DNA of 64,000 nt from Gekko japonicus. Its lineage: Eukaryota. Positions 4,579 through 48,014 of the stretch are shown in pieces; the first letter of the stretch is position 1; the number at the start of each line of letters is the position of its first letter. A program made the position numbers and the translations under genes. Where the stretch lies: positions 139,309-203,308 of the forward strand of contig NW_015173748.1 of the NCBI RefSeq assembly GCF_001447785.1, in the 5' to 3' direction. Below the pieces are notes generated by a model. That model made no database searches, was not told the origin of the DNA, and was given only the letters and a program-made list of their open reading frames with translations.

Positions 4579-5069
4579 TTGTTGTTGTTGTTCAGTCGCA
4601 CAGTCGAGTCCGACTCTTCGCGACCCCATGGATCATCTCCCGCCCGGCCCTCCTGTCTTCTGCCGTCCCCTGAAGTTGGCTCAATTTCATGTTCGTTGCA
4701 TCAATGACACTGTCTAACCATCTCATCCTTTGCCGTCCCCGTCTTCTTTGACCTTCAATCTTTCCCAGCATCAGGGTCTTCTCCAGTGAGTGCTCCCTTC
4801 TCATTTGGTGGCCAAAGTATTTGAGCTTCAGTTTCATTATCTGGCCTTCCAGGGAACAGTCAGGGTTGATTTCTTTGAGGATTGACTGATTTGTTCTTCT
4901 TGCAGTCCAAGGGACTCTCAAGAGTCTCCTCCAGCACCATAGTTCAAAAGAATCTATTCTTCGGCGCTCGGCCTTCCTTATAGTCCAACTCTCACAGCCA
5001 TACATGACTACTGGGAATACCATTGCTTTGACCATGCGGACTTTTGTTGGCAGGGTGATGTCTTTGCTT
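4579..5069 (-). mobile_element. BovB (RTE) LINE, 5'-truncated
   Basis: MVKAMVFPVVMYGCESWTIRKAERRRIDSFELWCWRRLLRVPWTARR...HGVAKSRTRL is the canonical BovB C-terminus; (CAA)n tail. Confidence 0.95.
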
Positions 5070-5580
5070 GAATTATAAGATGCGTCAGTGAGAATAGCAG
5101 TGTGTCTGGCGTGTTTGTGGTGATGTTCCTCTGGGGACGGACATGCAGGAAGGGGGCAACAGCGCTGCTTCTCTGTATAGCCTCAAGCGGATTTATTTCT
5201 TGAAGAGCCTCGATATAAAAAAGACTCTGTGTACTGACAGAACATTCAGTATCGAGGAGTACTGTGATGTAGAGAAGGATCTTGGTATTAAAGAGAGTTG
5301 ATATACTGCAAAGATTTGCCATGCCGATATGAAGACCAAACACAAAGGAATGCTTAGTACTGAGGGGGATGTTAAGGTGACTCTTGAACCTGAGATCTGG
5401 CCTGCAATATGGGGTAGAAATGATGATAGTCTTGACTATCATGTGAAGACCGATGTTCTCTCTGAGGCAGCTGAAGACAAACTGCTTGTAGGGGAGCTTG
5501 CAGCTGGGTGTGGCATGGTGAGTATGGTGAATCCTCTAGCTGAACCTCTCCCAAGTGAAGGTAAGGAGTCTTCTTCAGTA

Positions 5581-6858: not shown

Positions 6859-7020
6859 GATCAGCAGCACGGGTCTCCAGGTAGACAAAACAGAAACCTG
6901 GCTGAGGCACATTAATTTAGAGAGTAGTTTCAATTTTCTAGATCAGCAGCATGGGTCTCCAGGTAGACAAAAGAGAAACCTGGCTGAGGCACATAAATTT
7001 AGAGAGTAGTTTCAATTTTC
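6859..7020. repeat. 82-bp tandem duplication inside the LTR
   Basis: GATCAGCAGCAYGGGTCTCCAGGTAGACAAAA...TTTCAATTTTC starts at 6859 and again at 6941. Confidence 0.95.
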
Positions 7021-7801
7021 TTTAATAGTTCAAACATAAACAGGTTTTTACCGATTAACCATTGGTTGGATTCTAACACACACACAGAATTCCACCCACA
7101 CAGTCAGACTAAATGGCACAAGGTCTGTTCATTGCCAGAGACAAGCCTAACAATAGGGTACTCTATTCTCTGTCAGGAGCCAGACCACTCTGCCACTACC
7201 AAGCAGAGCTACCCTTCATTCTGTCTGCTCTTTTCCTGAGCCAGACCTGAACTCTCATAGCTCTCTCCTTGACGCAGAACTCAACATCTCCTGCTGTGTT
7301 TCCCTCCAACATTGCATTCCCCTTCTCAAAGGTGACTGGATGCTGGAATAGCACTCCCATAGGATTAAATGAATGGCCATTTTTCCTTTCAGGGGTGGGA
7401 CAGCCTTCTGTCTGTCACGGTATCTCAGCTGAGGCAGAGTCACTACCCAAACTTTGGTTGGTATTAGAGAAGCTGGAGGGGCACTTTTAATTGGTTGCTG
7501 CTTCCCCCCTCCCAGCTTCAGTCTCTTTTTCTTATTCTGAAGAGATGGTGGACCCTCGTCTCAAGTGGGATGATGGTTTGTTGGGTCATCAAGCCCAAAA
7601 GATGGGACAAAGAGGGATTTTCCTTCTTCCTTCTCTGAAGCTGAGACACAGTGATCCAAGCTGGAAGGGCCTTCTCCCTCAGAATAGTAAGACAAGATTT
7701 TTTCTTTCCTGTTTTGTGACCATTAGGCAGTAAGGGCAAGAAACTACCCCATGAAATTTGCTTAATCAGAGAAGGCAGTGGTCATAATCATCTGTTGACA
7801 G

Positions 7802-9307: not shown

Positions 9308-9448
9308 CAGATTTAATAGACCTATCACTACAACTTCCATCAATGGAAGGTGATGTCTGCTTCTTTACTTTAGGTGCTGGACCAAGTATCTTCATTGCCA
9401 ATCTTTTTCCATCACGCCAGGATGATGTACTTATTATACTGAACCTTC
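9308..9448 (-). CDS. CEP350-like exon (exon 9 homologue)
   Basis: 141 nt, tatttag|GA...TCTG|GTAAGA. GRFSIISTSSWRDGKRLAMKILGPAPKVKK...DRSIKS vs human GSSHLISTSSWRDGQKLVKKILGPAPRMEP...ERTAKS. Confidence 0.92.
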
Positions 9449-9919: not shown

Positions 9920-10036
9920 CTGGCTTGGAATAATGGCCTGGCAGCTCTGTTACTTTCTGGACTTTGCGCACTCTTCCTGTTGACTTTTTCTTCTTTCTTC
10001 TTTCAGCAGGCTTGTCTTTGAAAACAGAATCCTCTT
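9920..10036 (-). CDS. CEP350-like exon (exon 8 homologue)
   Basis: 117 nt (114 nt via the tandem acceptor CAG-AAG), donor CCAG|GTGAAT. EEDSVFKDKPAERRKKKKSTGRVRKVQKVTELPGHYSKP vs human DDISIKEKPAEKSKEKKVVKPVRKVQKVAQLSSTECRT. Confidence 0.9.
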
Positions 10037-11727: not shown

Positions 11728-11937
11728 AATAAAAATTAAGCAGCTCCCAGAAAAATAAAATCTACTCTTCCCTTCCCTACATAATGCTAAATAAATGCCT
11801 CCAGTCTACCAGCATTTTAACATTTATTAGAATGAATAAAAATTAAACAGCTCCCAGAAAAAAATATCTACTCTTCCCTTTCCTATATACTACTAAATAA
11901 ATGCCTCGTCTACCAGCATTTTAACATTTATTAGAAT
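11728..11937. repeat. ~107-bp tandem duplication
   Basis: AATAAAAATTAARCAGCTCCCAGAAAAA...CAGCATTTTAACATTTATTAGAAT twice, starting at 11728 and 11835. Confidence 0.9.
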
Positions 11938-13420: not shown

Positions 13421-14130
13421 TGTCAGCTAATGCTGCCATGGTCTGGAATGTGGGGGGTGCCCAGCTCCCTCTCCTCCTCTTCACCCTCCCTTCCCCCGCG
13501 TCTCATTTGCTGTGCTCTGTTATCTGTTTGGTGTCCTTGAAGGCTCGGCTCTGCCGGGTCCGCTTTTCCCTCTGGGAATGTAACTGCTGTATTTTGCCTG
13601 CGTTTACAGGTGCTTGCCTATTGGGTTCACTGCATCAGGGGGGCTGGTTTGAAAGGGTATAACTGTACAGGCTACCCATCCTCCCGCCATTCCTGACACA
13701 AGAGTTCATGGTGTCACAAGTACTAACCCTCAATAAACTGAAACTTCTGAAGGAATGTTGTTGAGTGTTTTGACTGGGAGGCCTGACAAAGGTGCCTTTT
13801 GAGGTATGGAAAGCTCGTAAGAACTTAAGAGGTGCTACGCACTACATGAAACCTGAACGCCAAGCAACTACGTTGGGCCGACTTCTTTTGTAAGTTCAGG
13901 TTCACTCTACACCACTTCCCGGGTAAATCGAACTCACTAGCTGACGCTTTATTGTGCCTCCCTCAACACAATAGCCAGAGGGAGGGCGTCATTGACTCTG
14001 TGTTCACTCCTGCCCAGTTGGGAGGGGCGGTTACAATGCGCAGCCAGGCATCCGCCCCAAAGGAGGAACCCATGGAAAAATGGGAAATGAAGTTCGCATC
14101 AGCGTTTTCAGAAACTGATCGGGATGTGTG
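13421..14130 (+). mobile_element. Ty3/Gypsy remnant: LTR-like segment joined to a pol RNase H fragment
   Basis: ~13790-14050 translates FEVW..KNL/EVLRTT*NLNAKQLRWADFFCKFRFTLHHFPGKSNSLADALLCLPQ, the Gypsy RNase H C-terminus. Preceded by AATAAA (13732) and ...CCTGACA (13788). Confidence 0.8.
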
Positions 14131-15245
14131 TGTGTGTGGAAGCGGGCTTCCACCCCCCCCTGCTTGGATTGACATTCTGAGCACCGCATAATGGCACTGC
14201 ATTTGCTGGGCACTGTACATTGCACTGGTTCTGATGGGCTTCCAACACACACCCCCAGACTGTGTTTGGCATCAGCTGGCATTGTCACAGTGGCACTGGG
14301 TTTGCTGGGCACTCTTATGATTGCACTGATACTGCTGGGTACCCTGTACAGTGCACTGATTCTGCTGGGCTTGCAAAAATGCCCCCCCCCCTTTCTACTG
14401 CACAGATTCTCTAGTTTGACTTTAGTCTTTTGGAAACAATGGAGGATGGGAGCACCTTCTTTGGGTCTGGTGAAGCTTGTGATCACTGTTTTGACACTTT
14501 TGTGATGCTTTGGCTAGTGTTAGTAGAAGTTAGTCCAAGGGTAGACTCCTGGTTCTCAAAAATGCCTTGTAGATATATGGGATGGTCAGCTCTTAGGCTT
14601 CAAAATGAAGAACAGAAGCCCATCCAAGTCCCTGCTCAGAACATGAGTGGTGTGATGGAATTATTATTACTATTTGCCATCAATTCACAACTGACTTATG
14701 GCAACCCTGTGGGGTTTTCAAGGCAAGAAACATTTGGCAGTGGTTTGCCATTGCCTGCCTCCACGTCAGCCCTGCTTAGCTTCTGAGATCTGACGAGATC
14801 AGGCTATCCTGGTCAGGGCTAGGCTGAGAGTAATGTGACTGGCCCAGCGTCACCCAGCAAGCTTCCATGGCACAAGTGGGGATTCGAACCTGGATTTCTC
14901 AGATCCTAGTCCAACACTTTAAGCACTACACAATGCTGGCTCTTGTGATGGAATAGCGTGTTGGAATTTGATTTGTTTTTCCTGGAATAATTATATATAT
15001 GAAGTTAAATAAATTTTTCACTGTCTGCATTTCTTTTCTGGCCATTGAAACAAACTTTGGGTTCAGTGGCACATTTAAGACCAAACTTTGTTCTGCTGCT
15101 TCAGACCAACATAGCTACCCACCTTTTTTCATATAGGAAAGGGGCCCGGACCTGGACAGCCCCAGCCTAGCCTGATTTTGTCAGATCTCAGAAGCTAAGC
15201 AGGGCCAATGCAGAGGCAGGCAATGGCGAACCATCTCCAAACATT

Positions 15246-15935: not shown

Positions 15936-16399
15936 CCACTGTACAGTTAGAGCCTTCCAAGCCCATTAATTTCAATGGACTTAGAAGCATGAGACTCTCC
16001 TTTGGATTGCACTGGAGGTATTTTTCAGCTTCTTGCATACTTCACTAATACTTGATAAACTAAGAGAAAATGGAGGATTAGGTAATATCAATATGGAAAG
16101 TATGACACCCTTGCAGGATGGACAAAGATTTACAAAAAAGATTGTGTGTGTGTGAAATATTAATAAAAACAGATTGTTAAAAGAAGATACTGGAGCCAGC
16201 ACCTAAACTAGAGCGGCAAGATAATCAACCTAAAGTGGAGAAGTGGGATAATCGACCTTCATTCACTGAAGATTTCCTAGTTTGCAGTTCTGGTGCTGTG
16301 CATGAGAGGAATTGGCAAGTATGAAAGAAGAGAGAGTACGTGTGGTCTTTAATTCATTGTTGTTACAAACAAATCAGTATTTGAAAGCGGCCTGCTTAC

Positions 16400-16513
16400 C
16401 TTCTAACTGGCGTTCCAAGTCTCTGCAGAGCTCTCTACTGAGACTGAGGAATTCTTCTTCATGCCGTACCTTTTCATCAGGAGTATAAATCTTGGCTTCT
16501 GATGGACTGAAAT
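16400..16513 (-). CDS. CEP350-like exon (exon 7 homologue)
   Basis: 114 nt, tattag|AT...GAAG|GTAAGC. DFSPSEAKIYTPDEKVRHEEEFLSLSRELCRDLERQLE vs human GFNPSETKIRTPDGKVWQEAEFQNMSRELYRDLALHFA. Confidence 0.92.
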
Positions 16514-17402
16514 CTAATAGAATAGCATAGCTATACCGAGCAAACCATTTTAAAAAGAAATCATCATGTTATGCTGGCTGAAATTAATTATATCAGGAGA
16601 AAGTACTATTTTAAGCACCTCACACATATTAGCTAGTTCATTACCACAATGATAAAGATACACAGAGATCCTAGCCTGTACTATATAAATTAAGAAGCTT
16701 TTCTATACAAAAGCAGCATTCATTATAGGGTATTCAAAAAATAAGGTACACGAGACATTACAGGAAAAACTAACCCCCCAAAGGGTCCAATGAAGCTTTA
16801 ATAGATTTTACTGATTCCCAAAGATTCCTGAATGCCAACATTGTATTTTATGTCTGTTGTGCACATGCAGAGAGCAAGTAATTTCAAATAAGTTAATATA
16901 AGAAAAAAGAAAATTTCAGGTAAAACATTATATTGCTATGACAATCACTGGCAGCTTAACAACTACAAGCAAATAAATCTAACAGAGATTGTGACACAAT
17001 CTGTAGCAACCCAAAATGGCACCTGGGATTGTGTGGCCCCCTGACATTCTGCAGGATCTTCGGGAGTCGTTTGGGGCTGCTAGAAGGCTGGAGAAAAGCA
17101 CTTAACATGAGCTTTAGGGGGAGCAGAGCAAGACGGCAGGAAGTGGAGGTCAGCACAGAATATCATTTTCCCTCCCACACAGAATCTCACAGATTCCCTG
17201 CTTGTACAGTTGAATACAAAACACGTCTATGGAAGGGAAGAAAATGCAACTAGAGCCCAGGGAACCAGAAAGCATTTTAAATGTTAAAATATTTCCATTG
17301 GTTAGAATTCTAACCACCACCACTGAAAGCAATAAATAAAGGCCACTGCATACCAATACAGATTTATCGTCTGCACAAAGACTAGAGACAGAGATTACAT
17401 AC

Positions 17403-18256
17403 CTTTATATGCAGGAGAAGGAGATGTAGCTGTCACTTTTCTGAGTTTAGGTGTTACTGTATTCTCTGTAGCTGCGACGATCACGGGATGATCAACATAG
17501 TCCTGAAACTGTTCTCTGCTATTCAGGTCTTCCTGAAACCGCCACTGTTTCCTAATCCGTCCCTTCAGTTTTTCCATTTTAGCATCATGCTGTCGATGCT
17601 TTAAGATAGCTAGCCTGTGGGTACTGGAGGTACTGGAAGAGGAAGCTGAAGATTCGGCCAACTGTGGGTCTTTCAGTTCAGCATCTGGGATTGTGATACT
17701 TAGAGACATTTTAGCATACTCATCTCTGGATCCCTCAGTCTTTTCCTCCTTTGAGCTTGTAGGTGTTACACCTTCCAAGGAAGGATCTGAGTTTCTAATC
17801 CGTCCCTTCAGTTTTTTCAGCTTTGCATCATGCTGGTGATGCTTTAAGATAGCTAGCCTGTGGATACTGGAGGTACTGGCAGAGGAAGCCGAAGATTTGG
17901 CCAACTGCGGGTCTTTCAGTTCAGCATCTGAGATTGTGATTGTGGGATTGTGAGACATTTTAGCATACTCATATCTGGGTCCCACAGTCCTTTCCTCCTT
18001 TGATCTTGTAGGTTTTACACCTTTCAAGAAAGGATCTGAGTTCTGCAAGGCATCAATTGCTGGTCGGTCATTCAAATATCGAACAACGGTTTCATCCACA
18101 GAAGACGGGCTTTTGAAATCTCTGTTCTGCAAATCTGGTTCATCTTTTTCATATGCCATATGGCTCGCTCCTTCTGCCTTATTCCTGGCTTTGTGCTTCA
18201 AACAATTTGCCTCTGACTGGCAAGAGCTTTTATAAGATGGGGACCCCTTTGTATCC
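17403..18256 (-). CDS. CEP350-like gene, large exon (homologue of human CEP350 exon 6) with internal tandem duplication
   Basis: VDETVVRYLNDRPAIDALQNS and HRLAILKHRQHDAKMEKLKGRIRKQW...DHPVIV...KLRKVTATSPSPAYK match recalled CEP350 (INDTVVRFLNDRPAIDALQNS; QRLDILKRRQHDVKLEKLKERIRKQW...DHPVMV...KVRKVATAPPAPAYK). Acceptor ctcttgctag|G, donor AAAG|GTATGT, 854 nt, phases 2 to 1. Confidence 0.92.
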
Positions 18257-19635: not shown

Positions 19636-19789
19636 CATACAGACCTAAAAGAAGCAGAGGCCTCACTACATTCAAAATTACTTTTCTTTTTCATGCTGTT
19701 ATCCAAAGCCGTAGCAGGAACAGGGCAGTGAGGGGACCGCTCCATCTTTTGGCTGGAAGACCTGCAGGCTGAAGCAAAAAACCAAGAAT
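19636..19789 (-). CDS. CEP350-like exon (exon 5 homologue)
   Basis: DSWFFASACRSSSQKMERSPHCPVPATALDNSMKKKSNFECSEASASFR vs human DSWVNAPISKSTKSRKEKSRSPLRATTLESNVKKNNRVEFREPLVSYR. Acceptor cctag|AT (phase 1). Two phase-2 donors, after 19645 (AG|GTCTGT) or after 19636 (TG|GTAAAC), both compatible with the next exon. Confidence 0.75.
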
Positions 19790-22900: not shown

Positions 22901-25643
22901 TATCAAAAAGAATTTGTGTGGGGGGTATAAAATATTTTTAAAACCCTTCTCCAAATATCCTATTTTGGGATTCTATAAATTCTCAGGGCCTTGAACAGCT
23001 CAGTACCCCCCATCTCCCCCTTTCCTCCTTCGATTCTCAGTTACTCTTCATATTCCATGCCTCTTGTTGTATGCTCAATCTTCATCAAACCTCCGGGGGA
23101 GGTGTCCTTTTTCTTGTGGTTAATATGCCAAGTCCTATTTTTCTGTCTACGTGAGGAAATTCCTGAGTAAGTTAAAATTCCTATTTTCTCCATGGGTGGC
23201 CCCATTGTGCGGTTTTTGTTACTTATCCAGGGGCCAACTACTTTCCTAAGATACAATGATAATAACATTGGTTATGATAAGGGAAAGGGTGCTTCCAAAT
23301 ATCACGCTGATCAGCATCCAAACAGATCACATTCAGCAATATTTCATAGATGAGGGACATCCACTTGCAAGATATTACAATTCATGATGGGAGTACTACC
23401 TCCTATGCAGATCCCTTAAGTCTGTTTGAAATGTATTCTGCCCTTCCAACCACACACTGCAAATGCATAGATTGTGTGGTGACCGGCAGTCCAGTTCAGA
23501 GTGCCAATTGCCCATAAATCCATTAGTGTGGATTGATTTTTACCTATGGGCCGCCAACTTATGCATTATGCAGACTGAGCCTGGGGTTACAGTGTTTAAC
23601 AGTGGATTGTTATTTCTCCTCATTTCCTGCATGTGCAGTGCCCAATTTGGATCAGGAATGTGACCTCTGTGGAGAAAGTGTTCCACATGATTTTCTTGAC
23701 CTGAAATGGTCAATTGGCAAAACCCACATTACCACAGGGTACATGCAGGGTTCCCCAACAGGCCAAATAGCACCCCCTGGAATATTTCAGGTTGGGAAAA
23801 CAGCACAAGGAAAGGCTAAAGACCCCTCTTCACATGTGTTGTGGTTCCAGTCAGAACAAGGCACCACACATGCAGGAACTGAGGAAACCCTACACCTCTC
23901 TCTCTCTCTTTTTTTACAGAGGTTGGGAAACTCAGACGCAAACTGTGTCCTCTATAATGAATTGGCCCATTTAATATTGTGCATACCTTTTTTACTTCTT
24001 TTCCTGGTAATACTGGCAGATGGTTTCTTGGCATCCATGACATAGTCCAACACAGCTGTTCTGATAGGAGCAACTCTTCCAATTTATTTTCTTTGTGTTG
24101 CTGCTATAGTTTGTATACGTATATTGAAAACAATTAGCAAGAAGCAAATATTAAAAACCTGTCTTGCATTCATAAAAAGATAGTAGTTAAACCACAGCTT
24201 TACAGATTGAGTTGTACATAGGGTTGCCAGCTCCAGGATGGGAAATTCCTGGAGATTTGGGGAATGGAGTCTGGAGAGGGCAGGGTTTAGGGAGGGGAGG
24301 AATTTCTGTGGAGTGTAATGCCACAGAGTCCACCTTCCAAAGCAACCACTTTCTCCAAGGGTGATCTCTATCACCTGGAGATCAGTTCCCCGATCTCCAG
24401 CTACCACCTGGAGTTTGGCAACCCTATATAATTGTATGGGCATAGCTCAAAAATCCTGAAGCAAAATAAAACAGAGTTGGACTGAGAACTCTTCAGGCAC
24501 CCTAGATCCCAATTTTTACTTGCCCCAGACCATTAGCATATGTATCACTCATATTTTATATTTTAACCTGTCTTGCTTTTCTCTTGGTTCAATTGGAAGT
24601 CTTTTAAAGAACGTGAACCTATCTATTTAACAAAGCCCGTGGAATTAACAGCCTAGTAATCACACACACAAAACCTTTATTGGCATTGAAAGCACAGCCT
24701 AGTAATCTAGTAAAACCCACAGAATGCCATAGAATAAAATACATTTTATAGCACATTTCATGGGTAGTGTGCATTGTTCTCCTCTGTTCCACATTGTCTT
24801 CACAACCTTGAGAACGGAGGCCTATGGAACCCTGAGAATGACTGGCCTATGGACTTCATGACAGAATGGGGAACTGAAGCTGGGTGGGTGGCCAGCATCC
24901 AATCCACTATACCACCTTGGGTCTAATAATGTAATTGCTGAATAAATTCAGGTGGAAAGCCATGTTGGTCTGAAGCAACAGAACAAAGTTTGAGTCCAGT
25001 GGCACCTTTAAGACCAACAAACTTTAATTCTGGGTATAAGCTTTCATGGGCATGCATACTTGTTCACATAAATAAATATTATTAATCTTTAAGGTGCCAC
25101 TAGACTTCTGTTTTATTGCACTATAATAAACACAGATATCTCTATGAAATTCTCATGATTTCAGTAATCTTTACAAGAATGGTACAAGGTTGGCCAATGT
25201 TGTTATCCCCATGATACAGAAAGAAGGCTGGATTATACTGAGATTTGAACTCTGGACCTCTCTGCCCACTCTTGGTTTCTACACTACATTATCTGTAAAC
25301 ACTGTGAACATCACATCTGTAACACTGTGAACATTATTCAACTTGAATAAAACTTTGTTGGTCTCAAAGGTGCCACTGGACTCAAACTTTGGTCTGGTGC
25401 TTCAGACCAGCAGGGTTATTCACCTGAATCTATCTTCACTGTGAACACAGTCACACATATATAAAACTGAAAAGGGAAGGAGGGTTTTCTTTGGGTCTTC
25501 TCAGTGGAACTGAAACATTCAGATGTCAGGACAAAGAGTAACAGCCAAAGACAGTGGGAAAGTCTCAAGGAGCTGCTCCTACCAGAGACGTTCTTGGCCT
25601 GTTCCTTCAGTTTTAGTTTTTTTAAGAAAGCATGGCTCTAACC

Positions 25644-26029
25644 CAGTGGTTCTCAACCTGTGGGTCGCAACCAGTGTTCCCTCTAAGCAGAGTTAGTGTG
25701 AGCTAGCTCACAATTTCTTAGCCTCCAGCTCACATGGCTCCAGAGCAAACTCATTTATGCAGCAGCCAAATGGCTCACTCACAAGTTTAATGCCAGTAGC
25801 TCACAGAGTAGAAGTTTGCTCACAAGACTCCACAGCTTAGAGGGAACATTGGTCGCGACCCCTTTGGGGGTCGAACGACCCTTTCACAGGGGTTGCCTAA
25901 GACCATCGGAAAACACAAATTTTCGATGGTCTTTATGATAGCAACGAAAATAATTTTATGGTTGAGGGTCACCACAACATGAGGAACTGTATTAAAGGGT
26001 CGCGGCATTAAGAAGGTTGAGAACCACTG
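25644..26029. mobile_element. SPIN/URR1-like hAT MITE carrying a nested MITE (25672-25851)
   Basis: CAGTGGTTCTCAACCTGTGGGTCGC...CCCCTTTGGGGGTCGAACGACCCTTTCACAGGGG...AAGGTTGAGAACCACTG matches the recalled URR1/SPIN non-autonomous consensus; TSD CTCTAACC/TTCTAACC. Confidence 0.85.
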
Positions 26030-26223
26030 TTCTAACCTTTTTATTTATGGAGATGAAAACAAAAATATGCAACAACATTCTCATCAGTTATTAACCTAAG
26101 AGGTAACTTGCTCACACTTGTCAGTGTTCTGACAAGTGCACATGTGGCAACTCAATACAGTGGGATTTATGAGTAATATTTGCTGGATTATATCCTAAAC
26201 GTTCGGTTCCCAGAAGTGCTCAC

Positions 26224-26241
26224 TGTTTGTAACGCAATCAT
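26224..26241 (-). CDS. Speculative start exon of the CEP350-like gene (MIALQT; exon 26224-26274)
   Basis: ttacag| acceptor, caccATG context, phase-0 donor ACA|GTGAGC compatible with the micro-exon. No convincing homology. Confidence 0.2.
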
Positions 26242-27445
26242 GGTGAAGTGAGTAGATATTTGTTGAAATTTTAACTGTAATACTGAGGAATAGTGTGCTT
26301 TAATCAATATTACAGACTTAGGAAGCCACATAGAAATATTAAGACATATGAGAACAATTTGTCCCCTGGGAGTCCACATTTCTCCCAAAATGTCCATCTC
26401 CTTGTTGTGTAATGCATTTAGGGGCAAGCCTGTAAAAGATCTACTCAGTAGTAAGTCCCATTTTGTTTAATCAGGCTTGCTCTCAGGAAACTGTAGGATT
26501 GTGGCCTTGAGGCATGTTTATTTCAAAGGAAATCCCACCTTCTTCAATGAAGCTTCTAGTAAACCTTAAAAGGAAATCTGAACAGCAGCAGCAAGCTACC
26601 TGCTGTTCCATTTTTCAAAAGCCTGCATGCCTACTCAAACAGAAGTAGCTTCATCTTTGTTTTTGGTCAGCATTATTATTATTAAAGGTTTTTAAAGTCC
26701 TACATGAAAAGGATCCCCTTTTAACCAAAGAACGGCATCGTAAAAAAGGTTTCCTTTTAAGGGTTCGTAACCCTCTACACCTAAAGGAACATACATTAAT
26801 AATAAGCCATTTCAAATCATTATTTTAAATATATCTATCTTAGACTCTCTAACTCCAAGGAAATACTTTTAATAATAAATAGGTATTTTTTATCGTACAA
26901 CGAAGTAAATATTTACTATTGCTACTACTCATAATACAGTTAATTTGATTTTATCCTACATCTCAGTGAATATTCATTATAACTAAGATATTGGGTTGGT
27001 TTCCCCCCCCTCATCCTACCTCTGGCTGAGTGAATATTTAACAATGTTTCTAGGGGAGGGTTACCTTCCATCTGAGTAAGCAATTCACTGTTCGTAACAG
27101 CAATTAAATATTTCTTATTCTACCTCTGAGTGAATAATATAAGTACAGCAGCATTTTTTGCGTTTTTTATTCTACGCGTGCTTGAAGACTTCTTATTAAT
27201 AATAACGGGATCTACTGGCTGTTTCATCTGCTGTACACGGTACTTACTTGGCAATTAAAAAAACACACACACCGAACCCGAGTCCCCCCCACCCCCCTCT
27301 TCAGGGACGCCGCACAGCGGGGGTGGGGAGCCAGCTCGCTACAGGGGCGGGGCCAGGGTGGGCGGAGGAGCAACGGCCGCCCTGGGAGGACCGGAGGTGG
27401 GCGAGAGGAGCCGCTCTGTCCCCTGCCCGGAGCTTTGTGGTTAAA

Positions 27446-27475
27446 ATGGCGGGGACTGAGGGGGCGAGCCCGTGA
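27446..27475 (+). other. Possible uORF (MAGTEGASP*) upstream of the ABL2 1b start
   Basis: aaaATGg strong Kozak context, TGA at 27473-27475; overlaps the YY1-like motif; a uORF only if the TSS lies upstream. Confidence 0.4.
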
Positions 27476-27661
27476 GGGCCTGGCTGGAGCGCGGCGGCGG
27501 CGGCGGAGTAGGCGGTGGCAAAAGGAGGCAGGGCAGCCCTGTGGGGAGCCGGGCTTTGCCGGGCGCGGTGCGACAAGCGGCGTACGCGGCGGCATGTGAG
27601 CGAGAAGCGAAGCAGGAGGCCGGGGGCGCTGGCGGGGGCCCGGGACGGGAGGAGACCGGGG

Positions 27662-27875
27662 ATGGGCCAGCAGGTGGGCCGTGTCGGAGAGCCGGGCGCC
27701 GCCGCGCCCCAGCAGCCGCCTCAGCAGCCGCAGCAGCCGCAGCCTCCTCCTTCTTCTTCCCAGCCGAGGGGGCTTCGTGGGAGCAGCAGCAGCGCAGCCA
27801 GGCCCGCCAGCCGGAGGCGAGAGGTGGCAACCCCCCGGGGCGCCGAGAGCGGCTTCAATATCTTCACCCAGCACG
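27662..27875 (+). CDS. ABL2: ABL2 (ARG) tyrosine kinase, first coding exon of the myristoylated 1b isoform
   Basis: Translates MGQQVGRVGEPGAAAPQQPPQQPQQPQPPPSSSQPRGLRGSSSSAARPASRRREVATPRGAESGFNIFTQH, matching recalled human ABL2 1b (MGQQVGRVGEAPGLQQPQPRGIRGSSAARPSGRRR...GFNIFTQH). Ends phase 1 at CACG|GTAAG; lies in a CpG island; has the MG myristoylation start. Confidence 0.97.
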
Positions 27876-30800
27876 GTAAGCGGGGAGGTGGGCGGTGGGG
27901 GAAGGCTGGCTGGCTGGGGCCAGGGTGGCGGGGTAAGGGAGGGAGGGAAGGAAGGAAGGAAGGAGGACTGCTTAGAGTGAGCCGCCGCCGGTATGGGAAG
28001 CAAATGGGTGTGGCACCAAAGCGGAGGCTGTAATGGAAATGGGGAGGCTTCCTCCTCCTCCTCCTCTGAAGTGGCACCGTTGGAAAAGGTGGAGGTGGGG
28101 CAGTCGCCACCCCAGGCTTGGGAGCCGAGGAATGGCCATGCTGGGCTGTAGACAGGCCCACCTGGGTCCGCATCCTGTTTTTCAACAGTAATTCGGGTGT
28201 GAAAGGAGATAAGTCTTTACTGTGTGTCTTAAATCTCGGCTTTTCTCCAAGGAGCTTGGTGTGATATATATGGCGATCTCCAATTCTTTATCCTCCAACC
28301 GCCCTGTGAGGTGGGTTAAAGAATGGCTGGCTGAGGCTACACTAAGTTTCATGGCAGAGTGAGGATTTGCTCTGTCTGGTCTTCATTCAGCTCTCTTAAT
28401 CGTGACACTGTATACAGACTCACCTTCCTGGAACAGGCCAGAGGGCTATATCTACCAATTTAGTGGTTTTTTGCTCCCCGCTGTTCCACTAAATAGCTCA
28501 CAGAGGCATGTATAGTTCTCCTTCTGCATCTTATTCTCCCAATCACTCTGCAAGGCAAGCCAGGTGGCGAGAACATTTGGCCTGAGGTCACCCTGTGAGC
28601 TTCCATGGCCTGAGTGGATACTTGAACCTGGTCCAGTCTGATAGTCTTAACTGCTATGCCACATGGACTCTCCCACCTAATCCAGCATTGCCTCTGGGAG
28701 AGTACACAAGGAAGGCATGAAGATTACAGATCGCCTCTTCAACAATCCTAAGCATTGGGCACTCACAGGTATACTGTTCCTCTGCTTGGAGTTACAGTTT
28801 AACTGTTGTGGCTGATAACTGTCAAACTTAAGGTTAAGTCATCTCGAACCAGCTGCTCTCATTGCATTACATCAGATTAATATCTGCTTAAGTGATTGCA
28901 ATGTGTCTCTGGCGACAAATGAGCTCTTCCTCCTGGAAATGTCAGAGGCTTCTTGGGCTGTTTAGGGTTTTGGTTTTTTTTTTACTTGGAACATATGTAT
29001 ATGGATGCTGATCTAGAATTCTGACCACGTGTTATTTCTTTGGAAACACCTTTTATCTGTGGCTGACTTGCTGTTTCTTACACACCAGGTGACCGTTTTT
29101 ATAAGCAACTGTGAATGGGCCTGTGTGCTAGAATGTCAGATTGCAACAAATGTTCTTAAAATGTATGGTTTTCTTTACATTCTTTGCCATCTTCCTTTAC
29201 ATTCTTTAAATTTCTTTCCTCCAAGGAGGATAGGAAACAGGAGATAACCATGTATATTGCACTAAGCTCCTTGGAGGAAAGAAATGTAAAGAATGTAAAG
29301 GAAACCACACATTTCAAGAATGTTTGTTGCAGTTTGACATTCTAGTACAAATTGTAACAAATGTTCTTAAAATGTATGGTTTTCTTTACATTGTAGATAT
29401 CTCTGAGTGTAGACTCTGACTCTTGTGCTGTGTATTTCCTCTCCTACCCATGTATGTGCATGCATATATCCCTACTGCAGTATGAAGTGGTGTCCCTGCT
29501 CATCTTCCCCTTGTGCTTTCCTGGCTCTGTCCCTGGTCTGTTGATGTGTCTTGTCTCTTGTCCTGGGGAGGAGCCATGGCCCAGTGGTAGAGCCTTGGCA
29601 CACAGAATATCCCTGACTCAATCCCTGGCATCACCCATTAAAACAATCAGGTAGTAAATGCTGTGGAAGACATCACCCTGAAACCTTGGAGATCCACTGC
29701 CAGTCTGACTAGACAATACTGATTTTAATAGACCAATTGTCTGATTCATGTGATTCCTGAATGCTGCTTTATTGGCATGGTAAAGGTATGCCCTTGTTGC
29801 TCTGCATAAGTCCCCATTGTCATAGCATGTCAGGCAGTGTAGTTTTTGCCGGGCTTCCTGCGTGATGCCCATTTTAGAACACTTTAGAGTGCTCTTGGGG
29901 CTGTTGTTCATCATTATCCCTTTTGGCATTCTTAAGAAGCGTCGCGATGCCAGCTTTGTTCTTCTTAAATTAATGATCTATTGACTTTTACTGGCAGGAC
30001 TGAGGGCAGAAGTAAATGCTGTGTGTATGAGAGACAGTGGCATCTCTTGAGTGAGTGTCAGCTTCTCTAGCTGGGAGACTTTGGGTAGGTGTGTAAGAAA
30101 TGCAGTGCTATTTGGAAAAATTCAGAAAGCTTTATCAGTCTCTTCTGTCAGTATTGGTTTTTTATGGTCTCCTGATAGGTCTCTTTGCAGCAAAGTCGCC
30201 TCCCAGAATTGGACACAGTTTCTCCTTCATCACTGTTGGAAGGCAGACCACTTTCATTTAAAGTTTTCATAGAAAGCCAAACCAGGCACCCATCAGGTGG
30301 GGAACTGTAGACTGGTAGGAAATATATGATGAAGGTGAGCTGTGTAGTTATCCCTAGGGTGATAACTACTACTGTAGGCAGGTATGGCAAACATTACAGT
30401 AGCAGTTTGAAAACCTCCTTTCAAGGAACCCATTTCATTTTGTTGTAGGGGCTGTCCTACATTTTTACAGAGTGCTAGCCAAACCCCATTAGCTCTGCTG
30501 CTCTTGCATGAAATGAGAATATACCCTGAAACACACTAAACTTGTGATTGTGGCTGTTCATTAGAGGGGAAGGTGAATAATGATGGGAAAAGGCTTAGGG
30601 ATGCTTGCTCACTATGACCGATCCTTCTCGTTGAGGAAACCTTATATAAAATTTTGAGCATCTCCAGAATTCCCTAGAACATAATTTTGAATATCACTGG
30701 GTGAGAGGGATGTAGCAGACCCTAGATTTGAAATAGTGTATATTGTATGTGCACAGGTTATCAAGGACTTTATCGGTACTCTTATCCTGGGAATTTGCTA

Positions 30801-44005: not shown

Positions 44006-45585
44006 AACATAAGAGAACATAAGAACATAAGAGATGCCAATGTTGGATCAGGCCAAAGGCCCATCCAGTCCAACACTCTGTATCACACAGTGGCCAGAAA
44101 TACCAGTGCCATCAGGAGGTCCACCAGTGGGGCCAGGACACTAGAAGCCCTCCCACTGTTGACCCCCCCAAGCACCAAGATGACAGAGCATCCCTTGCCC
44201 CAGAGTCCCTATCTATACCTTGTGGCTAATAGCCACTGATGGACCTCTGCTCCATATGCTTATCTAATTCCCTTTTGAAGCCGTCCATGCTTGTAGCCGC
44301 CACCACTTCCTGTGGCAGTGAATTCCAAGTGTTAATCACTCTTTGGGTGAAGAAGTACTTCCTTTTATCCGTTCTAACCCGACTGCTTAGCAATTTCATG
44401 GAGTGCCCACGAGTTCTTGTATTGTGAGAAAGGGAGAAAAGTACCTCTTTCTCTACCTGCTCTTTCCCATGCATAATCTTATAAACCTCAATCATGTCAC
44501 CCCTCAGTCGTCGTTTCTCCAAGCTAAAGAGCCCTAAGCGCTTTAACCTTTCCTCATAGGGAAAGTGTTCTAACCCTTTGATCATTCGAGTTGCCCTTTT
44601 CTGCACTTTTTCCAAAGCTATAATATCCTTTTTAAGGTGTGGTGACCAGAACTGCACACAGTACTCCAAATGACGTTGCACCATTGATTTATATGGGGGC
44701 ATTATGATATTGGCTGACCTGTTTTCAATACCCTTCCTAATAATCCCCAGCATAGCATTGGCCTTCTTTATTGCAGTCACACACTGTCTCGACATTTTCA
44801 GTGAGTTATCTACTACAACTCCAAGATCTCTCTCTTGATCAGTCTCTGCCAGTTCAGACCCCATCAACGTGTATTTATAGTTAGGATTTTTGGCTCCAAT
44901 GTGCATCACCTTGCACTTGGCCACATTGAACCCCATTTGCCATGTTGAGTTCAGACCCTATCAACGTGTATTTATATTTAGGATTTTTGGCTCCAATGTG
45001 CATCACCTTGCACTTGGCCACATTGAACCCCATTTGCCATGTTGACGCCCATTCGCCCATCTTTGACAGATCCCTTTGGAGTGCCTCACAATCCTCACTG
45101 GTTTTCACCACCCTGAACAACTTTGTATCATCCGCAAATTTAGCCACTTCACTGCTTACTCCCATCTCCAAATCATTAATGAACAAGTTAAAAAGCAGTG
45201 GACCAAGTACTGATCCCTGTGGTACCCCACTGTGCTTACCTCCCTCCACTGAGAGAACTGCCCATTTATACTCACTCTCTGTTTTCTATTAATTAGCCAG
45301 TTTTTGATCCATAAAAGGACTTGTCCTTTTATCCCATGATTTTTGAGCTTACTTAGGAGCCTTTGATGAGGAACTTTATCAAAAGCTTTCTGGAAGTCAA
45401 GGTAAACCATATCTATTGGATCCCCCTTGTCCACATGTTTGTTCACCCCCTCAAAGAACACTAACAGGTTAGTGAGACAAGATCTTCCCTTACAGAAACC
45501 GTGCTGAGTCTGCCTCAATAGGTTTTGTTCATCTATGTGCCTACTAATTCTTTCCTTAATAATGGTTTCCACCAATTTACCCGGT
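44006..45585 (-). mobile_element. CR1 LINE, 5'-truncated, with a 97-bp internal tandem duplication
   Basis: QHGFCKGRSCLTNL...YLDFQKAFDKVPH...SGVPQGSVLGP...KFADDTKL...LEYCVQFWSP...RRLRGDMIEVYKI; (CTTATGTT)n tail; possible TSD ATCTT. Confidence 0.97.
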
Positions 45586-45872
45586 ATCTTCCTGAACTAT
45601 TTTGCTATAATATGGCCCTATTACTTTTAGAGAAATGCTCTCTTGAACCATTGTGTTTTACGTAGTTTGTTAAATGACAGAAGCATGACCTCCTCATCCA
45701 AGCCGTTCTGCAAGTTAAGGGTTGTAAAAGAGAATGCCAGTGCATGGGTAGTTGTTAATCTTACTCATTTACAAGGTGGCATACCCAGAAGACCCTTCTC
45801 AGATGAGCGAAGCTCTTGTAGCAGAACATAAAAGGAGAGGCAGTTCTGCGGACACAAGGAGTGCATCTAGAA

Positions 45873-46335: not shown

Positions 46336-48014
46336 ATCTAGAATGTATCTGACATCCTTCTTCCTGTGGCAGCTCATCGTAGAAGATCAGGAATGAAGGG
46401 GCAAGTTGTTGCGAAGCTTATCTGTCACTCTCATTGATTAGCTTCCATAGAATCCCAAGGTTCTGTTGAAATACAATCAAGAACAGGATTTTCAAAACAT
46501 TAATTTGACTTAAACTTGGTTTGACAATCCTGGACAGCTGTCATGTAAGACTTGGCATGAAAATTCTGCGTAGCCTCGCTTTCATGGTGGCCACATTTTG
46601 GCTTTACCTGGATGTTGTCTGGCATGAAGTAAATGTGGGGCTTCTTCTTAAGGAGAGTATAGCAGTCAGGGCTCGTACAGCTTTCCCAGGAAAAGTAGCG
46701 TAAGCCATTTTAGTCTCCAGGGTGGATTTGATTTAAATCACTAGTCAGTAAAGAATAATCGTTAACAGCAACCGTTTAAATTGTTTTAACTAAAACAATA
46801 ACATTATATAGCAAATTTATTCTTGAATTTGCTTAAACATCCATGAGGCTATACTCACAAAGATCTCGACACTTCTGGAGTATTCCAGTCAGAAAGTATC
46901 AATGTCATTTGTACTACCCGCCCCCCCTTCCTCACACTTATCTCTTAACATCTTCTAATCCAGATCTAGTCCACTCCAAACAATGTTCTATTCATTGAAC
47001 TTCTTGAAACTTAGCACCTAAGCGATAAGGGGTTGATTCTCTGTACATAGTTTTGCAGAGGAACAATAGGATTAAGGTATCTTTTACTACTCATTTTTGC
47101 TGTTAAGAAGAGGCGTGTTATCTCTGAAGACACAAATTCACAGTTTCGAGAACTGTTATGGCATGTTCTAGGTAGAAAAGTTACCCAAAAAAGTCTTATA
47201 GAAACCTCTGGGAGAGCACTGGAATTCATTTGCAGTTTTTAAACACTGAATGAATATACAGTCTCATACTGCATAATTAAAAATTAATCCTTATTTCATG
47301 ATGTAAAACCTTTGGACTATAATGTATCTTAAATAGAAAGCTATCTAGATAGATTTCTCCCCCTCAAAAAGCATTTTATCAAACAAAATCTTATTTAAAT
47401 TTTTAAACATCTTTTTAAATTGATTTTTATCCATGGTTACAGCCTCTCAGTTGTCACTATGTCTTGTCTTTTTGAGTTTCCTGGTCCTATATTTGGCTTA
47501 AGGGGAAGATGGTAATGTGACAAAATGTAATAAGGAGATTGAAGGTGCCTGGTTCTTCCAAGTCTGGAACAGACCCATTGTAATTTGAGAGCTTATCATT
47601 GACTTGCAGCTTGGAGTCCAGTCCGGCTTAATAACTCCATTTTTATACATCTGAATAGGTTCATATCTAGTTTATCTGGAAAATATAAACATGGTGCACA
47701 GATTGTGATGATTTTATACAAAATAGATCTGTTTTGTAGGTAGTCTGTTGAAACAAACTGCTCCTGAGCTAGAACTAGGGGTCATTTCGTAGAAAAAGAG
47801 GTGCAGGAGCTCATTAGCATAACTCATTAGCATAACTTATTTGCATATGTCACACCCTTTGATATCACCGGAAGTGTGTCAGAAGGCAACACCCGCTGCT
47901 CAGGCTCCACTGGACTGTTTTGGATTGCTAGCTATTGGGGGGGGGGGAATGTGCAGATCTGTCCTCGCAGAGGAGGGAGAGCCTGTACCTGAATAAAACT
48001 TGGTCTTAAAGGTG

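What the first reader, a model, noticed from the sequence alone, without database searches (positions are those of the whole stretch)
17552..18043. In-frame intra-exonic tandem duplication (83 + 81 aa) diverging mostly by amino-acid changes
Seen: units 17795-18043 (249 nt) and 17552-17794 (243 nt) each encode NSDP...HRLAILKH.QHDAK..KLKGRIR and account for the exon being 854 nt. Manual alignment gives ~91% identity, with about 15 non-synonymous and 4 synonymous differences plus one frame-preserving 6-nt indel. Inference: near-neutral or positive divergence with the frame kept open, doubling a basic coiled-coil motif that is single-copy in human CEP350.
Basis: partly seen in the sequence, partly recalled or inferred. 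Interest (0 to 1): 0.7.

Follow-up and report, generated by a model that had tools for sequence, protein, structure and literature searches.

The report
Doubled helix in gecko CEP350 copy
A gecko carries a second, fast-changing copy of the centriole gene CEP350 in which an 81-codon stretch is doubled in frame; the spare half likely drifts freely inside the protein, though it could be turning into a new intron.

Summary
The duplication is real: two in-frame units (249 and 243 nt, 219/243 identical) in an 854-nt exon, spanned by single contigs in an independent run of the species and in a second species. The gene is not CEP350 itself but a second, gecko-specific copy beside ABL2; the syntenic CEP350 lies on other contigs with one unit. 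The paralog keeps a 2794-codon open frame, changes about seven times faster in amino acids than the ortholog (pairwise dN/dS 0.41-0.56), and also exists, single-unit, in Paroedura. Unit-versus-unit dN/dS is 0.8-1.0 (CI 0.4-3.2): neutral-like, no sign of positive selection. Derived changes concentrate in the redundant copy (15 vs 5, p=0.04), whose two indels keep the frame. Best reading (0.6): a tolerated spare helix in a disordered region of a relaxed paralog. A duplicated AG|GT makes the 249 nt a possible GT-AG intron, and the RefSeq model skips exactly these 83 codons; an exitron or new intron is the bold rival (0.2). Expression and splicing are untested. The stretch lies outside the mapped microtubule-binding site.

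The parts
17403..18256 (-). 854-nt coding exon of the CEP350-like paralog that holds the duplication
   Evidence: AG/GT ends shared with the ortholog exon
17794..18042 (-). unit 1 (5' copy, 83 aa); carries 13 of 20 polarised changes, the 6-nt insertion, net charge +9; helix lacks the following conserved KQW stretch
17551..17793 (-). unit 2 (3' copy, 81 aa, ancestral length); its helix runs on into the conserved KQW stretch
17772..18020 (-). possible 249-nt GT-AG intron/exitron between the two copies of an AG|GT motif; the only in-register GT/AG pair; skipped in RefSeq model P0131
   Evidence: splicing itself not tested
17999..18013 (-). 15-nt in-frame deletion in run X1 (likely a polymorphism), inside unit 1
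23987..24038 (-). first in-frame coding piece (from the ATG of MDAKK) of the paralog; a 2-nt insertion just upstream shifts the older frame; ortholog coding exons 1-2 not found
19645..19768 (-). paralog exon upstream of the duplicated exon; holds the ATG that starts the Paroedura paralog model
16400..16513 (-). paralog exon downstream
9920..10036 (-). paralog exon
9308..9448 (-). paralog exon; 29 more modelled exons follow beyond the window start, to G000:C14038:75734
27000..28000 (.). CpG island with the first exon of an ABL-family gene (ABL2 by recall) on the + strand, head-to-head with the paralog; possible shared promoter (inferred)
   Evidence: GC 0.55-0.73, CpG o/e 0.73-0.77; ORF; F_actin_bind domain at C14038:228768-230561

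Best explanation
This is a real in-frame tandem duplication of 81 codons inside one exon of a gecko-specific, fast-evolving second copy of CEP350, and the spare copy is likely translated as a redundant linker-plus-helix that drifts almost neutrally while selection likely removes only frame-breaking changes. Shown: duplication, paralog status, open frame, rates, asymmetry. Inferred order: (1) CEP350 was duplicated in the gecko lineage and lost its first two coding exons; (2) the copy came under relaxed but real constraint; (3) after the split from Paroedura and before the split from organism B, 243 nt doubled, probably by unequal crossover or slippage; (4) the outer halves stayed joined to their conserved neighbours (upstream VVRYLNDRP stretch, downstream KQW helix) and kept most constraint, while the inner 83 codons, predicted disordered apart from a shortened helix, accumulated changes.
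For: Paralog: a second CEP350 with one unit sits on C16853/C1771 between a LAP1_C gene and a thioredoxin-domain gene; window gene and Paroedura CEP350-like form a clade, 100% bootstrap, outside four gecko orthologs. Constraint: 35-exon model, 2794 aa, 0 internal stops against 15-43 expected if neutral at d=0.05-0.15; pairwise dN/dS 0.41 (0.37-0.46) to 0.56 (0.51-0.63) on 2690 codons; 444 paralog-only vs 59 ortholog-only residue changes. Neutral-like units: dN/dS 0.79-1.03. Asymmetry: 15 vs 5 derived bases in the inner vs outer halves, p=0.041; 18 vs 5, p=0.011 with three indel-adjacent sites. Translation of the spare copy: both its indels (6 nt; 15 nt in X1) keep the frame where 30 of 182 intronic gaps do (about 0.03 by chance, post hoc), no stop in either species contig seen. 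Fold: disorder with helices at 127-154 and 211-248.
Against: No paralog RNA was seen: in X21 (raw reads, about 3% of one run, tissue unknown) depth was 0 over 16300-17509 and the few reads on the exon carried 7 or more differences, like ortholog reads. RefSeq P0131 skips the 83 codons. Unit 1 vs unit 2 asymmetry without the AG|GT breakpoint is not significant (13 vs 7, p=0.26). 13 random changes leave the frame stop-free 69% of the time, so lack of stops is weak. The gene model was fitted for best match to P0010, and one junction after the CAP-Gly exon needs a very weak donor (score -4.95) or an extra exon. The +7 charge shift in unit 1 is unlikely under random change (P 0.002-0.006, post hoc).
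Confidence: 0.6

Rival explanations
1. The duplication created a new intron or exitron: the AG|GT motif present in both units supplies a donor (18020) and an acceptor (17772), and splicing removes exactly the extra 83 codons in some or most transcripts, restoring a one-unit protein.
For: One in-register GT/AG pair exists; it arises from a C-to-G change absent in the ortholog. Donor scores 6.15 and acceptor 6.47 on a matrix from this locus: above 15 of 68 true donors and 17 of 70 true acceptors, and in the top 3.4% of 355 and 1.6% of 860 exonic decoys. RefSeq P0131 drops exactly these 83 aa. Derived changes fall 15 vs 5 inside the would-be intron. Paroedura paralog models X5 and X6 also cut inside this exon (26 and 107 aa). 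The mechanism works in cells at 6-16% (PMC3265369).
Against: P0131 is flagged LOW QUALITY and reads through a frameshift at its N-terminus, so homology-guided modelling could have forced the skip. Both indels in the stretch keep the frame (about 0.03 for free intron DNA). Neither site has been strengthened since the duplication. The asymmetry is equally expected from protein-level redundancy. No spliced read was seen.
Confidence: 0.2
2. Unit 1 is under positive selection toward a more basic second helix that changes binding to microtubules or a partner.
For: Net charge +9 vs 0; all five charge-changing derived residues in unit 1 go toward positive; simulated P(+7 or more) 0.002-0.006. Unit 1's helix keeps the conserved motif with one derived residue change in its last 23 codons.
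Against: dN/dS not above 1. The statistic was chosen after looking. Shifts of 8-9 occur in other 81-aa windows of paralog vs ortholog, though at greater divergence, and E-to-K outnumbers K-to-E gene-wide (20 vs 11). One of the changes is absent in organism B and X1 deletes five codons of unit 1. The mapped microtubule site is elsewhere.
Confidence: 0.08
3. The paralog is now a dying gene in this lineage and the duplication is unselected debris in a sequence that is no longer translated.
For: Coding exons 1-2 missing, 2-nt insertion in the first piece; the CAP-Gly exon ends in a 27-nt repeat with about 230-250 codons lost and its nearest consensus-like donor out of phase; no paralog reads in X21.
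Against: 0 internal stops in 2794 codons, all other 33 of 34 junctions canonical and in phase; exons after the lesion keep dN/dS 0.31-0.44; the Paroedura paralog has 7 RefSeq isoforms and also starts late. Any death would have to be very recent, later than the duplication.
Confidence: 0.1
4. Assembly artefact (two alleles or paralogous copies stitched in tandem).
For: None found; fragmented assembly of 191500 contigs.
Against: Single contigs span both units in X1 and X14, and the junction in X17; flat depth.
Confidence: 0.01

Closest known systems
CEP350 (CAP350), vertebrate centriolar scaffold
   Same: Same exon order and phases, CAP_GLY (78.7 bits) and DUF4378-like C-terminus in model P0131; conserved HRL..IL..HQHDAKLEKLK.RIRKQW motif (mean conservation 0.92 over 156 distinct segments). 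Human aa 1-983 binds CEP78 (PMC8354638 passages); aa 403-725 binds microtubules (PMC9623370 passages).
   Different: A second locus, 74% identical to the same genome's ortholog, lacking the first 60 residues and about 230-250 residues after CAP-Gly, with the motif doubled. None of 256 fetched proteins has two true copies, with the caveat that this gene's own RefSeq model also shows one.
Paroedura picta CEP350-like (XP_077188567.1, P0132; 7 isoforms)
   Same: Sister in the tree, late start, same relaxed rate, same chromosome-length contig as its CEP350.
   Different: One unit in its models; keeps the region after CAP-Gly but has a deleted CAP-Gly core (23 bits, under the 26.5 cut-off); its isoforms cut the exon at a different internal site.
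Intron gain by tandem duplication of an AGGT site (ATP2A1 intron 8, Hellsten et al. 2011, PMC3265369; potato RdRp case, PMC4974935)
   Same: Exonic tandem duplication containing AG|GT; removal would restore the one-unit peptide exactly.
   Different: Here the copies are still 90% alike and the frame is open, and splicing is not shown. The potato case crosses an intron-exon border (abstract seen).
Exitrons (Marquez et al. 2015, PMC4484396)
   Same: Internal, stop-free, multiple of three, in a disordered region, weak-to-moderate sites.
   Different: No transcript evidence here; the abstract proposes origin from coding exons after intron loss, not tandem duplication (abstract and outline seen).

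Membership tests
CEP350 family | Colinear homology over the protein with conserved exon structure | tested here: met
   35 exons colinear with the ortholog, 74% identity
CEP350 family | CAP-Gly domain and C-terminal DUF4378 region | tested here: met
   CAP_GLY 78.7 bits; DUF4378 22.3 bits, under cut-off but above the ortholog P0010's 17.9; joining of the C-terminal exons in frame is uncertain
CEP350 ortholog | Syntenic place between TOR1AIP1 and QSOX1 (order recalled) and grouping with other species' CEP350 | tested here: not met
   That place is held by C16853/C1771; the window gene groups with Paroedura CEP350-like
CEP350 family | Centriole localisation, binding of CEP78, FOP and microtubules | not testable with these tools
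   needs cell work
Intron gained by tandem duplication / exitron | Duplicated AG|GT giving an in-register GT-AG whose removal restores the ancestral peptide | tested here: met
Intron gained by tandem duplication / exitron | Usable splice signals (donor, pyrimidine tract, acceptor) | tested here: inconclusive
   scores in the lowest quarter of true sites, top 2-3% of decoys, on a 68/70-site home-made matrix with paired paralogous sites; branch point not scored
Intron gained by tandem duplication / exitron | Spliced transcripts observed | tested here: inconclusive
Positively selected repeat | dN/dS significantly above 1 | tested here: not met
   0.79-1.03, CI 0.36-3.2, low power
Pseudogene | Accumulated stops and frameshifts, dN/dS near 1 gene-wide | tested here: not met
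   0 stops, dN/dS 0.41-0.56; two frame lesions only, at the 5' end and after CAP-Gly

The most novel reading that the evidence does not exclude
An intron being born: a young AG|GT-containing tandem duplication in a gecko-specific CEP350 paralog is spliced as an exitron, giving one-helix and two-helix isoforms, a natural vertebrate example of the tandem-duplication route to intron gain with both copies still 90% alike and segregating variation inside.
Probability: 0.2. Interest if true: 0.72.

Novelty: new variant of a known kind. Interest (0 to 1): 0.38.

Why it matters
In-frame exon-internal duplications in disordered scaffolds are ordinary. Two things lift this one. First, geckos keep a second, fast-evolving CEP350, annotated only as '-like'; no paper on it was found in three searches (listings only), and its two known members have lost different parts, which offers natural deletion variants of a centriole-length regulator. 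Second, recent vertebrate intron gains are very rare (PMC3265369); if the 249 nt are spliced, the case makes the tandem-duplication model testable in a living population with one RT-PCR or long-read run. It also shows that protein databases can hide such duplications, since the RefSeq model drops the unit.

Tried and rejected
Pfam on the exon: 4 weak matches, all under cut-off. PDB sequence search with unit 2: 0 hits. Representative search: 8 hits, 7 with one stretch, 1 unrelated repeat protein with 6. Copy count in 256 fetched proteins: 251 one, 3 none, 2 with a second 26-bit match at 24-38% identity, taken as chance; an earlier strict pattern matched 98 of 129 once and none twice. Sex-chromosome gametolog idea: rejected, since the neighbouring FAM20B-like exon and ABL2-like exon 1 have one full match each in the genome. 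No RNA holder listed among the indexed runs; nine rows guessed to be RNA with shares 0.06-0.88 were never laid and are not counted as evidence. The planned lay of four such runs over the 5' exons gave no result, so expression, start site and splicing stay open. Paralogs from Heteronotia, Euleptes or Eublepharis were not among the listed hits (120 of 599 and 120 of 216); this is not proof of absence. Earlier notes of the scan: none found. Literature searches with no relevant listing. No complex prediction or fold search was run: the model is two helices in disorder. Supplements were not read; the CEP350 conservation figure in PMC9623370 (Fig. S1) might bear on the motif.

Full report
Observation. 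The minus strand holds a 306-aa open frame with a repeated motif and a direct repeat at spacings 243 and 249. The exon is 18256-17403, 854 nt; units are 249 and 243 nt, 219 of 243 bases alike with one 6-nt gap. It is not a mis-assembly: of 4 runs laid, X1 (same species label, own variants) and X14 (organism B, 32 differences in 836 nt, no gap) each have one contig over both units and X17 (organism B) spans the junction; the fourth was RNA.

Which gene. A genome search with unit 2 gave 3 matches: the two units and one copy, 83% alike, on C16853. That copy encodes P0001 (CEP350-like, Gekko japonicus; my model matches it at 1693 of 1702 columns), lies downstream of a LAP1_C gene, and appears to continue on C1771 upstream of a thioredoxin-domain gene; this is the TOR1AIP1-CEP350-QSOX1 order I recall for other amniotes, and joining the two contigs is my inference. 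The window gene runs over about 88 kb of C14038 between a FAM20B-like exon (name recalled) and an ABL-family gene, each single in the assembly. Flanking intron pieces of the two CEP350 genes still align at about 70-78%. In a tree of 17 proteins (2407 gap-free columns) the window gene pairs with Paroedura CEP350-like at 100%, outside the orthologs of Gekko, Heteronotia, Paroedura and Euleptes and inside Eublepharis; long branches may have pulled the pair outward.

Is the paralog alive. A model fitted to P0010 gives 35 exons and 2794 codons with no internal stop; neutral change at d=0.05-0.15 would give 15-43. Pairwise dN/dS is 0.41-0.56 over 2690 codons, dS 0.27-0.34; residue changes are 444 on the paralog against 59 on the ortholog. 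Against this: coding exons 1-2 were not found and a 2-nt insertion precedes the first in-frame ATG; after CAP-Gly about 230-250 codons are lost and the in-phase donor is very weak, while RefSeq adds a small exon there. In the one raw RNA run laid (about 3% read, tissue unknown) no paralog-like coverage was seen. Paroedura's paralog has 7 isoform models, which usually means transcript support (my knowledge of RefSeq practice).

Evolution of the units. dN/dS between units is 0.79, 0.94 or 1.03 for kappa 1, 2, 3, CI 0.36-3.2: neutral-like and not separable from the gene-wide value. dS 0.11-0.13 places the event well after the gene duplication; it is shared with organism B and absent from the Paroedura models. 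Of 24 differences, 20 were polarised with the ortholog DNA, 3 more by outgroup proteins, 1 left open: 13 in unit 1 and 7 in unit 2 (p=0.26); split at the AG|GT in codon 8, 15 in the inner 249 nt and 5 in the outer halves (p=0.041; 18 vs 5, p=0.011). Five of 6 listed organism-B differences in unit 1 change the residue (only 40 of 170 rows were shown, ranked by depth). Both indels in the inner copy keep the frame, against 30 of 182 intronic gaps. Unit 1 has net charge +9 against 0 for unit 2 and -1 to +2 in relatives; P 0.002-0.006 in simulations, chosen after the fact.

Structure. With a 40-row alignment the exon is predicted disordered (mean pLDDT 55, pTM 0.22) with helices at 127-154 and 211-248. 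The helix motif is the conserved part of the unit (0.92 vs 0.62); unit 1's copy stops before the conserved KQW stretch. Passages of PMC9623370 put the microtubule site at aa 403-725; passages of PMC8354638 map CEP78 binding only to aa 1-983. No function of the motif itself was found.

The intron rival. Both units carry AG|GT, giving one in-register GT-AG of 249 nt, 18020-17772. RefSeq P0131, on a contig of the same length as the window's, lacks exactly these 83 residues. Site scores are in the lowest quarter of true sites and the top 2-3% of decoys. Hellsten et al. (PMC3265369; parts 1-2 of 4 read) show 6-16% splicing from such a duplication. But P0131 is a low-quality, probably homology-guided model, the sites have not improved, and frame-keeping indels argue for translation. 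Partial splicing is compatible with both readings.

Verdict. Real; a new variant of known kinds (paralog under relaxed constraint, exon-internal duplication). Best reading 0.6, exitron or new intron 0.2, recent decay 0.1, positive selection 0.08, artefact 0.01. Interest 0.38; 0.72 if splicing at the duplicated AG|GT is shown.

Noticed in passing
G000:C14038:83900-83750 (outside the window, locus L009): End of the paralog's CAP-Gly exon: a 27-nt direct repeat 59 nt apart with loss of about 230-250 codons; nearest consensus-like donor is out of phase; RefSeq bridges it with a small exon at about 83280. Could be a recent lesion, a polymorphism or an assembly error.
   Followed up: partly
window 24038-28000: The paralog starts about 3.5 kb from the CpG island of the ABL2-like first exon, head-to-head; it may have borrowed a bidirectional promoter after losing its own first exons.
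   Followed up: partly
P0132, P0243, P0246: The Paroedura paralog has a deleted CAP-Gly core and two isoform models that cut inside the same exon (26 and 107 aa), one removing the conserved helix; the two paralogs have lost complementary parts.
   Followed up: partly
window 6859-7021, 11728-11937, 44851-45045: Three other two-copy tandem duplications (82, 106, 97 nt; 91-97% alike) in non-coding or mobile-element DNA: such events are common here.
   Followed up: no
G000:C14038:132161-132149: The ancestral acceptor AG of one paralog exon has changed to AA; an in-frame AG 9 or 12 nt downstream rescues the frame.
   Followed up: no
G000:C1771:46618-46779 and 47055-47216: The last coding exon of the ortholog appears twice, identical at protein level, 437 nt apart: tandem copy or assembly duplication.
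   Followed up: no
G000:C1771:8673: A donor site of the ortholog reads GG where the paralog has GT; probably an assembly error; my ortholog model used a GC 12 nt further on.
   Followed up: no
window 44226-45596, 2336-2875, 4592-5182, 13850-14191: Fragments that look like reverse-transcriptase-bearing mobile elements in introns (identification by recall).
   Followed up: no
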